The position numbers and the translations under genes were made by a program. Shown piece after piece: positions 50,257 to 63,306 of a stretch of DNA of 64,000 nt. The stretch is from Pecten maximus (lineage: Eukaryota), in assembly GCF_902652985.1 (NCBI RefSeq), contig NC_047015.1, positions 19,840,001 to 19,904,000 on the forward strand. Direction: 5' to 3'. The notes beneath the pieces are model-generated. The model was not told where the DNA came from. It saw only the letters and a program-made list of their open reading frames with translations, and ran no database searches. The number at the start of each line of letters is the position of its first letter. The stretch's first letter is position 1.

Positions 50257-53200
50257 TTCATCCAGTGTACCGGTAATCTGACATCCACTGTACCGGTAAT
50301 CTAACATCCAGTACCGGTAATCTAACATCCAGTGTACCGGTAATCTGACATCCAGTGTACCGGTAATCTGACATCCAGTACCGGTAACCTACCATCCAGT
50401 GTACCGGTAATCTGACATCCAGTACCGGTAATCTAACATCCAGTGTACCGGTAATCTGACATCCAGTGTACCGGTAATCTTACATTCAGTGTAACGGTAA
50501 TCTAACAGCTAGTGTACCGGTAATCTGACATCCAGTTTACCGGTAATCTAACATCCAGTGTACCGGTAATCTGACATCCAGTACCGGTAATCTAACATCC
50601 AGTTTACCGGTAATCTAACATCCATTGTACCGGTAATTTGACATCCAGTGTACCGGTAATCTGACATCCAGTGTACCGGTCATCTAACATCCCGTGTACC
50701 GGTAACCTACCATCCAGTTTACCGGTAACCTATCATCCAGTTTACCGGTAATTTGACATCAAGTGTACCGGTAATCTGACATCCAGTACCGGTAACCTAC
50801 CATACAGTGTACCGGTAATCTAACATCCAGTGTACCGGTAATCTGACATCCAGTGTACCGGTAATCTGACATCCAGTGTACCGGTAATCTGACATCCAGT
50901 ACCGGTAACCTACCATCCAGTGTACCGGTAATCTGACATCCAGTACCGGTAATCTAACATCCAGTGTACCGGTAATCTGACATCCAGTGTACCGGTAATC
51001 TTACATTCAGTGTAACGGTGATCTAACAGCTAGTGTACCGGTAATCTGACATCCAGTTTACCGGTAATCTAACATCCATTGTACCGGTAATTTGACATCC
51101 AGTGTACCGGTAATCTGACATCCAGTGTACCGGTCATCTAACATCCCGTGTACCGGTAACCTACCATCCAGTTTACCGGTAACCTACCATCCAGTTTACC
51201 GGTAATTTGACATCAAGTGTACCGGTAATCTGACATCCAGTACCGGTAACCTACCATCCAGTGTACCGGTAATCTAACATACAGTGCATGTACCGGTAAT
51301 CTGACATCCTGTGTACCGGTAATCTAATATCCAGTGTACCGGTAATCTAATATCCAGTGTACCGGTAATCTAACATCCAGTGTACCGGTAATCTAACATA
51401 CAGTGTACCGGTAATCTAACATCCAGTGTACCGGTAATCTAACATACAGTGTACCGGTAATCATACATTCAGTGTACCGGTTATCTAACAGCTAGTGTAC
51501 CGGTAATCTAACATTCAGTGTACCGGTCATCTAACATCCATTGTACCGGTAATCTTGCATTCAGTGTACCGGTAATCTGACATCCAGTACCGGTAACCTA
51601 CCATCCAGTACCGGTAATTTTACATCCAGTACCGGTAATCTTACATTCAGTGTACCAGTAATCTGACATCCAGTGTACCAGTAATCTGACATCCAGTGTA
51701 CAAGTCATCTAACATTCAATGTACCGGTAATCTAACATCCAGTGTACCGGTAACCTACCATCCAGTGTACCGGTAATCTAACACCCAGTGTACCGGTAAT
51801 CTAACATCCAGTGTACCGGTAACCTAACATCCAGTGTACCGGTAATCTAACATCCAGTGTACTGGTAATCTAACATACAGTGTACCGGTAACCTAACATC
51901 CAGTGTACCGGTAATCTAACATCCAGTGTACCGGTAATCTAACACCAAGAGTACCGGTCATCTAACATCCAGTGTACTGGAAATCTAACACCCAGTGTAC
52001 CGGTCATTTATCATCCAGTGTACCGGTAATCTAACATCCAGTGTACCGGTAACCTACCATCCAGTGTACCGGTAATCTGACATCCAGTGTACAAGTCATC
52101 TAACCTTCAATGTACCGGTAATCTAACATCCAGTGTACCGGTAACCTACCATCCAGTGTACCGGTAATCTAACACCCAGTGTACCGGTAATCTAACATCC
52201 AGTGTACCGGTAATCTAACACCAAGAGTACCGGTCATCTAACATCCAGTGTACTAGAAACCTAACATCCAGTGTACCGGTCATTTATCATCCAGTGTACC
52301 GGTAATCTAACATCCAGTGTACCGGTAACCTACCATCCAGTGTACCGGTAATCTAACATCCAGTGTACCGGTAATCTAACATCCAGTGTACCGGTAATCT
52401 GACATCCAGTGTACCGGTAATCTGACATCCAGTACCGGTATTCTACCATCCAGTGTACCGGTAATCTGACATCTAGTACCGGTAATCTAGCATCCAGTGT
52501 ACCGGTAATCTGACATCCAGTGTACCGGTAATCTGACATCCAGTGTACCGGTAATCTGACATCCAGTGTACCGGTAATCTGACATCCAGTACCGGTAACC
52601 TACCATCCAGTGTACCGGTAATCTGACATCCAGTACCGGTAATCTAACATCCAGTGTACCGGTAATCTTACATCCAGTGTACCGGTAATCTTACATTCAG
52701 TGTAACGGTAATCTAACAGCTAGTGTACCGGTAATCTGACATCCAGTTTACCGGTAATCTAACATCCAGTGTACCGGTAATCTGACATCCAGTGTACCGG
52801 TAATCTGACATCCAGTACCGGTAATCTAACATCCAGTTTACCGGTAATTTGACATCCAGTGTACCGGTAATCTGACATCCAGTGTACCGGTAATCTAACA
52901 TCCAGTGTACCGGTAATCTAACATACAGTGTACCGGTAATCATACATTCAGTGTACCGGTTATCTAACAGCTAGTGTACCGGTAATCTAACATTCAGTGT
53001 ACCGGTCATCTAACATCCATTGTACCGGTAATCTTGCATTCAGTGTACCGGTAATCTGACATCCAGTGTACCGGTAACCTACCATCCAGTGTACCGGTAA
53101 TCTAACATCCAGTGTACCGGTAACCTAACATCCAGTGTACCGGTAATCTAACATCCAGTGTACTGGTAATCTAACATACAGTGTACCGGTAACCTAACAT

Positions 53201-56200
53201 CCAGTGTACCGGTAATCTAACATCCAGTGTACCGGTAATCTAACACCAAGAGTACCGGTCATCTAACATCCAGTGTACTGGAAATCTAACACCCAGTGTA
53301 CCGGTCATTTATCATCCAGTGTACCGGTAATCTAACATCCAGTGTACCGGTAACCTACCATCCAGTGTACCGGTAATCTGACATCCAGTGTACAAGTCAT
53401 CTAACCTTCAATGTACCGGTAATCTAACATCCAGTTTACCGGTAACCTACCATCCAGTGTACCGGTAATCTAACACCCAGTGTACCGGTAATCTAACATC
53501 CAGTGTACCGGTAATCTAACACCAAGAGTACCGGTCATCTAACATCCAGTGTACTAGAAATCTAACACCCAGTGTACCGGTCATTTATCATCCAGTGTAC
53601 CGGTAATCTAACATCCAGTGTACCGGTAACCTACCATCCAGTGTACCGGTAATCTAACATCCAGTGTACCGGTAATCTAACATCCAGTGTACCGGTAATC
53701 TGACATCCAGTGTACCGGTAATCTGACATCCAGTACCGGTATTCTACCATCCAGTGTACCGGTAATCTGACATCCAGTACCGGTAATCTAGCATCCAGTG
53801 TACCGGTAATCTGACATCCAGTGTACCGGTAATCTGACATCCAGTGTACCGGTAATCTGACATCCAGTGTACCGGTAATCTAACACCAAGTGTACCGGTA
53901 ATCTGACATCCAGTACCGGTAATCTAACATCCAGTGTACCGGTAATCTGACATCCAGTGTACCGGTAATCTTACATTCAGTGTAACGGTAATCTAACAGC
54001 TAGTGTACCGGTAATCTGACATCCAGTTTACCGGTAATCTAACATCCAGTGTACCGGTAATCTGACATCCAGTGTACCGGTAATCTGACATCCAGTACCG
54101 GTAATCTAACATCCAGTTTACCGGTAATTTGACATCCAGTGTACCGGTAATCTGACATCCAGTGTACCGGTCATCTAACATCTGGTGTACCGGTAACCTA
54201 CCATCCAGTTTACCGGTAACCTACCATCCAGTTTACCGGTAACCTACCATCCAGTGTACCGGTAATCTGACATCCAGTGTACCGGTAATCTAACATCCAG
54301 TGTACCGGTAATCTAACATACAGTGTACCGGTAATCATACATTCAGTGTACCGGTTATCTAACAGCTAGTGTACCGGTAATCTAACATTCAGTGTACCGG
54401 TCATCTATCATCCATTGTACCGGTAATCTTGCATTCAGTGTACCGGTAATCTGACATCCAGTACCGGTAACCTACCATCCAGTACCGGTAATTTTACATC
54501 CAGTACCGGTAATCTTACATTCAATGTACCAGTAATCTGACATCCAGTGTACCAGTAATCTAACATCCAGTGTACCGGTAACCTACCATCCAGTGTACCG
54601 GTAATCTAACACCCAGTGTACCGGTAATCTAACATCCAGTGTACCGGTAACCTAACATCCAGTGTACCGGTAATCTAACATCCAGTGTACTGGTAATCTA
54701 ACATACAGTGTACCGGTAACCTAACATCCAGTGTACCGATAATCTAACATCCAGTGTACCGGTAATCTAACACCAAGAGTACCGGTCATCTAACATCCAG
54801 TGTACCGGTAATCTGACATCCAGTGTACCGGTCATCTAACATCCCGTGTACCGGTAACCTACCATCCAGTTTACCGGTAACCTACCATCCAGTTTACCGG
54901 TAATCTGACATCCAGTGTACCGGTAATCTGACATCCACTGTACCGGCAATCTGACATCCAGTACCGGTAACCTACCATCCAGTGTACCGGTAATCTAACA
55001 TACAGTGCATGTACCGGTAATCTGACATCCTGTGTACCGGTAATCTAATATCCAGTGTACCGGTAATCTAATATCCAGTGTACCGGTAATCTAACATCCA
55101 GTGTACCGGTAATCTAACATACAGTGTACCGGTAATCTAACATCCAGTGTACCGGTAATCTAACATACAGTGTACCGGTAATCATACATTCAGTGTACCG
55201 GTTATCTAACAGCTAGTGTACCGGTAATCTAACATTCAGTGTACCGGTCATCTAACATCCATTGTACCGGTAATCTTGCATTCAGTGTACCGGTAATCTG
55301 ACATCCAGTACCGGTAACCTACCATCCAGTACCGGTAATTTTACATCCAGTACCGGTAATCTTACATTCAGTGTACCAGTAATCTGACATCCAGTGTACC
55401 AGTAATCTGACATCCAGTGTACAAGTCATCTAACATTCAATGTACCGGTAATCTAACATCCAGTGTACCGGTAACCTACCATCCAGTGTACCGGTAATCT
55501 AACACCCAGTGTACCGGTAATCTAACATCCAGTGTACCGGTAACCTAACATCCAGTGTACCGGTAATCTAACATCCAGTGTACTGGTAATCTAACATACA
55601 GTGTACCGGTAACCTAACATCCAGTGTACCGGTAATCTAACATCCAGTGTACCGGTAATCTAACACCAAGAGTACCGGTCATCTAACATCCAGTGTACTG
55701 GAAATCTAACACCCAGTGTACCGGTCATTTATCATCCAGTGTACCGGTAATCTAACATCCAGTGTACCGGTAACCTACCATCCAGTATACCGGTAATCTG
55801 ACATCCAGTGTACAAGTCATCTAACCTTCAATGTACCGGTAATCTAACATCCAGTGTACCGGTAACCTACCATCCAGTGTACCGGTAATCTAACACCCAG
55901 TGTACCGGTAATCTAACATCCAGTGTACCGGTAACCTAACATCCAGTGTACCGGTAACCTAACACCCAGTGTACCGGTAATCTAACATCCAGTGTACCGG
56001 TAATCTAACACCAAGAGTACCGGTCATCTAACATCCAGTGTACTAGAAATCTAACACCCAGTGTACCGGTCATTTATCATCCAGTGTACCGGTAATCTAA
56101 CATCCAGTGTACCGGTAACCTACCATCCAGTGTACCGGTAATCTAACATCCAGTGTACCGGTAATCTAACATCCTGTGTACCGGTAATCTAACTTCCAGT

Positions 56201-62640: not shown

Positions 62641-63306
62641 GTGTAGCGGTAATCTGACATCCAGTGTACCGGTAATCTGACATCCAGTGTATCGGTAATC
62701 TAACATCCAGTACCGGTAATCTTACACCCAGTATACCGATAATCTAACATCCAGTGTACCGGTAATCTAACATACAGTGACCGGTAATCTAACACCCAGT
62801 GTACCGATAATCTAACATCCAGTGTACCGGTAATCTAACACCCAGTATACCGATAATCTAACATCCGGTGTACCGGTAATCTGACATCCAGTGTATCGGT
62901 AATCTAACATCCAGTGTACCGGTAATCTAACATCCAGTGTACCGGTAATCTACCATCCAGTGTACCGGTAATCTAACATCCGGTGTACCGGTAATCTAAC
63001 ACCCAGTATACCGATAATCTAACATCCAGTGTACCGGTAATCTAACATCCAGTGTACCGGTAATCTACCATCCAGTGTACCGGTAATCTAACATCCAGTG
63101 TACCGGTAATCTAACATCCAGTGTACCGGTAATCTAACATCCAGTGTACCGGTAATCTGACATCTAGGGTATCGGTAATCTAACATCCAGTGTACCGGTA
63201 ACCTACCATCCAGTGTACCGGTAATCTAACATCCATTGTACCGGTAATCTAACATCCAGTGTACCGGTAATCTAACATCCAGTGTACCGGTAATCTTACA
63301 TCCAGT
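62641..63306. repeat. 23-bp satellite, right arm
   Basis: Same unit as 50257-56654, resuming in register after the insertion. Confidence 0.96.

What the first reader, a model, noticed from the sequence alone, without database searches (positions are those of the whole stretch)
50257..63306. Three-level nest: satellite > TSD-less hairpin element > intact Harbinger
Seen: removing 56728-61902 plus one ATG restores a ~0.8-kb element, and removing that element (56655-62640) restores a satellite unit exactly in register with no duplication. All four junctions are crisp, so both insertions look recent. Inference: a hyperparasitic chain in which an autonomous cut-and-paste element uses a multicopy non-autonomous element as a safe haven, and might be carried as cargo by it.
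Basis: partly seen in the sequence, partly recalled or inferred. Interest (0 to 1): 0.7.

Follow-up and report, generated by a model that had tools for sequence, protein, structure and literature searches.

The report
Harbinger inside Crypton inside satellite
An intact cut-and-paste transposon sits inside a small gene-less jumping element, which sits in a satellite repeat; the middle element is a shortened relative of recombinase-carrying Crypton transposons, and the nest likely arose from two separate landings, the second at a likely favoured site, with no sign of a dedicated shelter or of hitch-hiking.

Summary
The nest is real: 23-bp satellite > 808-bp element with no target duplication > PIF/Harbinger (56728-61902, ATG duplicated, both genes open under a splice model). 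The host has at least 226 copies and derives from a CryptonA: four longer relatives with its left end carry an in-line tyrosine-recombinase remnant, and 38 of 60 recombinase loci share its hairpin-end design (null 2 of 40). The scan noted this design before in other genomes. Satellite location is at chance level (13 of 46 vs 48 of 200). The specific safe-haven idea fails: the Harbinger's two other sites lie in a SINE-like repeat and in a different CryptonA's recombinase gene. No cargo evidence: the only duplicated composite is a segmental duplication, and this host copy's ends are damaged. A broader preference survives: 6 of 22 Harbinger sites lie in one SINE-like repeat (0.9% of sampled DNA), four within a few bases, and a second 3-bp-duplication element hit the same triplet of the host family. 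Largely ordinary nesting, with a testable hot-spot lead.

The parts
50259..56654 (+). 23-bp satellite array, left part (about 280 units)
   Evidence: TRF; register across the empty site
56655..56727 (+). Host element, left part (73 bp including the first ATG of the duplication)
   Evidence: 380 candidates in G000, 40 scored, all 99-100% over 73 bp; boundary A|TTCT in 46 of 46 full copies
56655..56664 (+). Host terminal short inverted repeat (TTCTAACACG)
   Evidence: sequence; mirrored at 62513-62526
56725..56727 (+). Target duplication ATG, left copy; same triplet hit by a 231-bp element in relative L369
56728..61902 (.). PIF/Harbinger transposon, 5175 bp, 37-nt terminal inverted repeats
56885..59656 (+). 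Myb/SANT gene, predicted six exons (56885-56898, 57279-57385, 57617-57676, 57929-58339, 58683-58748, 59481-59656), 277 aa
   Evidence: Pfam Myb_DNA-bind_4 E 2.9e-12; open splice model
60234..61806 (-). Transposase gene, predicted two exons (61806-61703, 61263-60234), 377 aa
   Evidence: Pfam DDE_Tnp_4 E 7.5e-40; open splice model
61903..61905 (+). Target duplication ATG, right copy
61906..62640 (+). Host element, right part (735 bp)
   Evidence: 553 candidates, 40 scored; 226 exact matches to a 19-nt junction motif
61948..61950 (+). ATG that in longer relatives precedes the recombinase remnant (inferred old start codon)
62513..62526 (+). Subterminal inverted copy of the left end, with a private 3-bp insertion in this copy
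   Evidence: 1 of 56 copies
62527..62637 (+). Terminal palindrome, ending 3 bp from the element end; inner arm shortened by 33 bp and made perfectly complementary in this copy
62641..63306 (+). 23-bp satellite array, right part (29 units)

Best explanation
The nest is a 23-bp satellite holding a gene-less element shortened from a CryptonA transposon, which holds an intact Harbinger, and it likely arose from two independent insertions, the second at a likely favoured site. Step 1 (shown: no duplication, target A^[AGT]T[A]; inferred: enzyme supplied in trans): a CryptonA tyrosine recombinase inserted the host into the satellite, which is simply a quarter of the genome's target space. A circular intermediate is inferred from precise head-to-tail dimers; a folded single-strand recombination site is a further inference. 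Step 2 (shown: 3-bp duplication, TIRs, both genes): the Harbinger cut-and-pasted into the host 42 bp upstream of the old recombinase start codon, in GC/CpG-richer, promoter-like DNA of the kind Harbingers here prefer (preference shown on a small sample; its cause inferred). The host copy's hairpin end is damaged, so the composite is probably a dead end for the host, while the Harbinger would leave by its own ends.
For: Host class: L369, L372, L373, L374 (4 of 4 longer relatives examined) have the host left end followed in line by a recombinase C-terminal stretch (tblastn E 6e-11 to 1e-19 to L165/L167, which are DUF3504 + Phage_integrase proteins) and then host body; the stretch has no inverted repeats of its own; it has 43 matches in G000, about 16 long. 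End design in 38 of 60 recombinase loci vs 2 of 40 null windows. Target: A at -1 in 46 of 46, T at +2 in 42 of 46; two nested CryptonA inserts use the same A^NTA rule. Satellite: 13 of 46 host sites vs 48 of 200 random points, Fisher p 0.57. Harbinger family has 3 independent sites plus one segmental duplicate. Nesting is common in this host: 5 inserts among about 63 copies. Harbinger flanks GC 0.447 vs 0.370, CpG 4.3 vs 2.1 per 97 bp, 14 sites, p about 2e-4.
Against: No intact autonomous element with the host's own ends was found among 60 eight-kb and 60 three-kb recombinase loci, so the mobilising enzyme is not identified. The 62-aa remnant of L369 alone has no Pfam match. 2 of 3 family sites are in CryptonA-type elements against a background of at most 1.3-3.2%; leaving out the window, the chance of 1 of 2 is 0.03-0.06, so some real affinity is not excluded. 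The C13 site also lies about 180 bp from a recombinase fragment. Both interruptions of the host 5' end are at the same triplet. The architecture detector missed the window's own damaged host and L182, and some of its hits are low-complexity.
Confidence: 0.72

Rival explanations
1. Hot-spot hyperparasitism: Harbinger transposases in this genome recognise particular sites inside abundant mobile elements (a site near the start of a SINE-like repeat, the promoter triplet of this Crypton family), so that landing in other elements is a selected strategy and not a by-product.
For: 6 of 22 Harbinger sites in one SINE-like repeat that covers 0.9% of 400 kb sampled and 4.1% locally; P(>=6 of 22) 4e-8 and 2e-4. 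Four of them fall at repeat positions about 118-121, from three families, two at the same base in opposite orientation; no pair shares outer flanks. Same triplet hit twice in the host family.
Against: Post hoc and small. 14 of 22 sites are in neither class. Family C duplicates CTA in 5 of 6 sites, mostly outside the SINE-like repeat, so a plain sequence preference could explain its hits. 0 of 19 sibling-family sites lie in my CryptonA library (one weak architecture hit, L262). A third short TIR element in a host copy (L006) sits at a different site. The 231-bp element is Harbinger-like only by its 3-bp duplication and TIRs.
Confidence: 0.2
2. One reading: this Harbinger uses this host family as its shelter and is carried as cargo.
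For: Host is multicopy; host-family copies tolerate inserts up to 5 kb; a second satellite-flanked CryptonA holds the same Harbinger family at C14.
Against: 0 of 2 other sites in this host family; composite single-copy; C14 duplicate is segmental; host ends damaged.
Confidence: 0.05
3. The host is a non-autonomous Helentron/HLE2 rolling-circle element (subterminal repeats plus terminal stem-loop, no duplication).
For: General layout resembles HINE/DINE-1 (PMC4067079 passages); head-to-tail dimers.
Against: Target is A^[AGT]TA, not TT; 3' subterminal repeat lies about 115-150 bp from the end, not 38-60; longer relatives carry recombinase, and recombinase elements share the design.
Confidence: 0.03

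Closest known systems
CryptonA DNA transposons and their non-autonomous derivatives (Kojima and Jurka 2011, PMC3212892; Glomhoppers, PMC13465315; passages read)
   Same: Recombinase with DUF3504 as the only enzyme, no target duplication, short derivatives far outnumber coding copies.
   Different: Those passages report no terminal repeats in animal Cryptons and no TIRs in Cryptons; here a TT-start short repeat, its subterminal mirror and a 100-180-bp terminal palindrome are the rule (38 of 60 loci). Repbase entries and the papers' supplements were not seen and may describe this.
PIF/Harbinger superfamily (transposase + Myb/SANT gene, 3-bp duplication; established knowledge, Pfam)
   Same: Two convergent genes, G-starting TIRs, 3-bp duplication.
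   Different: Nothing of note in the element itself.
Nested MITE multimers and preference of MITEs for other MITEs (review PMC5172404, passages citing Jiang and Wessler 2001)
   Same: Short elements are frequent targets of other elements by independent insertions.
   Different: Here an autonomous Harbinger in an animal, and the targets are a Crypton derivative and a SINE-like repeat.
Target-specific DNA transposons: Dada, Pokey, CryptonV (PMC8869645 passages)
   Same: Idea of sheltering in multicopy DNA.
   Different: Those insert at one fixed target; this family's three sites are three different sequences.
Helentron/HINE/DINE-1 and HLE2 (PMC4067079, PMC11417382 passages)
   Same: Subterminal inverted repeats, terminal stem-loop, no duplication.
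   Different: TT target and short stem-loop there; A^NTA target, long palindrome and recombinase ancestry here.

Membership tests
CryptonA (host) | Tyrosine recombinase with DUF3504 as sole enzyme, or derivation from such an element | tested here: met
   In-line remnant in 4 of 4 longer relatives, best hits L165/L167 (DUF3504 + Phage_integrase); remnant alone has no Pfam hit
CryptonA (host) | No target-site duplication | tested here: met
   Satellite register; 13 array-embedded sites continue in phase; one-base A ambiguity
CryptonA (host) | No terminal inverted repeats, as published for Cryptons | tested here: not met
   10-11-bp asymmetric repeat and terminal palindrome present; but 38 of 60 DUF3504/recombinase loci here share it, so the published description, not the ancestry, is what fails
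CryptonA (host) | 4-6-bp terminal direct repeats (fungal and oomycete Cryptons; reported absent in animals) | tested here: not met
   Only a shared A
CryptonA (host) | Excised circular intermediate | not testable with these tools
   5 precise head-to-tail junction contexts are compatible
CryptonA (host) | Recombinase groups with CryptonA in a tree | not tested
   Assignment rests on Pfam DUF3504/QRICH1
Helentron/HLE2 (host) | Insertion between T and T | tested here: not met
   A at -1 in 46 of 46; +1 is A 24, T 12, G 10
Helentron/HLE2 (host) | 3' subterminal repeat 38-60 bp from the end, short stem-loop | tested here: not met
   About 115 bp in this copy, about 148 in full copies
Helentron/HLE2 (host) | Rep/helicase partner with the same ends | not tested
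   No Rep/helicase search was run
DIRS retrotransposon (host) | Long inverted terminal repeats with RT/RNaseH partner | tested here: not met
   No long terminal repeats; elements of this design examined hold a recombinase frame, no other long frame in L163 or L171. The internal mirror of the joined ends does resemble an ICR
PIF/Harbinger (inner element) | DDE_Tnp_4 transposase | tested here: met
   E 7.5e-40
PIF/Harbinger (inner element) | Second gene with Myb/SANT domain | tested here: met
   E 2.9e-12
PIF/Harbinger (inner element) | TIRs and 3-bp duplication | tested here: met
   37-nt arms, ATG/ATG; imperfect triplets at C13 and C14
Target-specific transposons (Dada/Pokey type) | All copies at one multicopy target | tested here: not met
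   3 sites, 3 different targets

The most novel reading that the evidence does not exclude
Harbinger transposons in this animal genome home in on fixed sites inside other mobile elements: one few-base site of an abundant SINE-like repeat (hit by three families) and the promoter triplet of a Crypton derivative (hit twice), making them hyperparasites by target choice; and the hairpin end that the host shares with recombinase-coding CryptonAs is a folded single-strand recombination site.
Probability: 0.25. Interest if true: 0.62.

Novelty: new member of a known kind. Interest (0 to 1): 0.36.

Why it matters
As a nest it is ordinary: nesting is frequent here (5 inserts among about 63 host copies, one of them a further three-level nest). 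Two by-products have value. First, the in-line recombinase remnant ties the gene-less hairpin-ended elements directly to CryptonA and gives a target rule, which makes the untested Crypton mechanism open to assay. Second, if the Harbinger hot spots hold genome-wide, they would be a rare case of cut-and-paste transposons preferring defined sites in other mobile elements, and would give natural substrates for asking how the Myb partner and transposase choose targets.

Tried and rejected
Host-specific shelter: rejected. Cargo: C14 second copy shares 2 kb beyond the palindrome (93.7%) and the satellite, hence segmental duplication. Satellite targeting or satellite generation by the host: no enrichment. 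Helentron and DIRS: see membership. Autonomous partner: not found among recombinase loci; four divergent junction hits gave L369 instead. First CryptonA background (1.3%) was inflated by a 155-bp array inside library entry L182; without it, no library hit in 400 kb; the de novo estimate is 3.2%. Six of 13 hits of the Harbinger TIR pattern had no further similarity and were dropped. Three of 20 sibling Harbinger loci (L244, L246, L259) were dropped because ends were not found. De novo TIR search was unreliable and replaced by copy-to-copy alignment. SINE identity: Rfam found nothing relevant, ARAGORN a tRNA-like stretch only at relaxed threshold, so 'SINE-like' is inferred from size and tail. 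Sequencing runs from other samples hold parts of the stretch but none was laid, so they are not used; polymorphism and expression stay open. Paper searches that found no description of the Crypton end design or of Harbinger-in-SINE targeting: 0 papers; unspecific; 0 papers; Repbase and subscription papers were not covered.
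Full report
Observation. The window is G000:C1:19840001-19904000 of a 918-Mb animal genome; earlier scan notes call it a scallop (not checked). A 23-bp satellite runs 50259-56651 and 62640-63306. Inside, 37-nt inverted arms bound 56728-61902 with ATG on both sides. The element encodes a DDE_Tnp_4 transposase on the minus strand and a Myb/SANT protein on the plus strand; both are open under a GT-AG splice model, 377 and 277 aa. Removing it and one ATG gives 808 bp, which aligns with dispersed copies over its whole length. Removing 56655-62640 leaves satellite anchors 23 bp apart.

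The host family. A 19-nt motif at its hairpin junction has 226 exact matches, control 0. In 46 full copies (of 53 candidate starts in 58 loci; 7 lacked an end or flank) the base before is A in 46, the next bases are A/T/G then T in 42 and A in 35. Copies embedded in minisatellites continue in phase, confirming no duplication. Head-to-tail dimers join precisely, 5 contexts. Anatomy: a TT-starting 10-11-bp repeat at the left end, its mirror near the right end, then a palindrome of about 145 bp ending 3 bp from the terminus; mirror plus outer arm equal the reverse complement of the joined ends less two bases.

Class of the host. Two host copies carry inserts with the same design, the same A^NTA target and recombinase fragments (L128, L129). 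Full-length recombinase frames in G000 match DUF3504, QRICH1 and Phage_integrase, i.e. CryptonA, and 38 of 60 such loci are enclosed by the same end design against 2 of 40 background windows (the detector has false hits and missed the window's damaged copy). The direct link is L369: same left end, same palindrome, and between them a recombinase C-terminal stretch just after the ATG that corresponds to window 61948. That segment has 43 matches in G000; 3 of 3 further copies fetched show host left end, recombinase remnant, host body. The host is therefore an internal-deletion derivative of a CryptonA close to L165/L167. An intact partner with its ends was not found. Helentron fails on target and spacing (passages of PMC4067079 and PMC11417382). 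Passages of PMC3212892 and PMC13465315 say animal Cryptons lack terminal repeats; passages of PMC5753468 mention terminal similarity of CryptonA derivatives to Eulor5/6 without describing it. Supplements were not read. The scan's earlier notes report this design in other animal genomes and propose an integron-like folded strand; I reuse that as an inference. Here the hairpin's mismatches are kept in 43 of 45 copies, which fits but does not prove it.

Is the satellite special? No: 13 of 46 host sites lie in tandem arrays versus 48 of 200 random points, p 0.57; arrays cover 24.5% of 400 kb sampled.

Where else does this Harbinger sit? End searches and a TIR pattern give three independent sites and one duplicate. 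C13 is inside a 540-bp SINE-like repeat, about 180 bp from a recombinase fragment; C14 is inside the recombinase gene of a decayed CryptonA of another family that abuts a 34-bp satellite. The second C14 copy shares outer flanks, so it is a segmental duplication. No other host copy holds this Harbinger: 61 of 63 host 5' ends are empty. The window's host has a 3-bp insertion in its mirror repeat (1 of 56), a 33-bp arm deletion and lost mismatches; it is probably no longer mobile. Shelter in this host and cargo are unsupported.

What remains of the preference idea. Among 22 Harbinger sites with defined ends (3 own, 17 of 20 sibling loci, 2 more by pattern), 6 are in the SINE-like repeat, 2 in CryptonA-type elements, and 14 in neither. 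The repeat covers 0.9% of the background and 4.1% locally; P(>=6 of 22) is 4e-8 or 2e-4. Four hits cluster at positions about 118-121 of the repeat, from three families, two at one base in opposite orientation, and they are independent. Flanks are richer in GC and CpG than background (14 sites). The only other interrupted host 5' end, L369, holds a 231-bp element with 23 of 25 matching TIR bases and a CTG duplication at the same triplet as the window's Harbinger. Against: the test is post hoc, family C simply favours CTA (5 of 6), no sibling site lies in my CryptonA library, and a third TIR element in a host copy sits elsewhere. For CryptonA-type DNA (0-3.2% of background) one of two non-window sites has a chance of 0.03-0.06: suggestive only. 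The window's site lies between motifs that read as a CCAAT box (56688-56692, reverse) and a GC box (61921-61929), names recalled, upstream of the old start codon, so a liking for promoter-like DNA is the simplest cause (inferred).

Comparison and verdict. Nested short elements and MITE-in-MITE preference are in print (PMC5172404 passages); true target-specific DNA transposons use one target (PMC8869645 passages), which this family does not. PMC11481361 passages describe bivalve SINEs but did not identify this repeat. No read data were laid, so age and polymorphism are open. Verdict: real, mostly ordinary nest; new member of known kinds; interest 0.36, with the hot spots and the Crypton end design as the leads worth following.

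Noticed in passing
L129 (G000:C4:29390359-29396267): Another three-level nest: host family > CryptonA-type element with recombinase fragment > DDE_3 (IS630/Tc1-like) element with a second long frame of unclear family.
   Followed up: partly
L128 and L129, host positions about 666-676: Two different CryptonA families inserted into the same TA-G-TA site of host copies, on opposite strands, one base apart.
   Followed up: partly
L092/L093 (G000:C14:35.010-35.022 Mb): Second satellite-flanked CryptonA holding the same Harbinger family; this copy carries a further 4.1-kb insert at position 230 and a deletion.
   Followed up: partly
L091 (C13) and L092 (C14), Harbinger right junctions: Both older copies read ATT after the right end although the left triplets are AAA and TTT; possibly carry-over of a donor duplication, or chance.
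   Followed up: no
L248, L252, L258, L247: Harbingers of three families inserted within a few bases of one site in a SINE-like repeat.
   Followed up: partly
L163/L174 versus L171/L172 and others: The recombinase gene faces either way relative to the hairpin end depending on family. L172 is a head-to-tail dimer of coding elements.
   Followed up: partly
window 62527-62637; L002, L003, L004, L129, L369: The terminal palindrome is a hot spot of local deletions and arm duplications.
   Followed up: no
L006 (second host copy, position about 620): 652-bp TIR element flanked by TTA / TTA(A); class unclear.
   Followed up: no
window 63445-64000, 9540-12430, 38533-42298: Further tandem arrays (28, 27 and 155 bp); the 155-bp family also occurs inside CryptonA-type locus L182 and widely in the background.
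   Followed up: no
window 14714-15457 (+), 5483-6334 (+), 27900-28706 (-): Long open frames: a Gly/Ser/His-rich, apparently secreted protein; a hydrophobic membrane-like protein; a frame that looks like a SAM-domain exon (names by eye).
   Followed up: no
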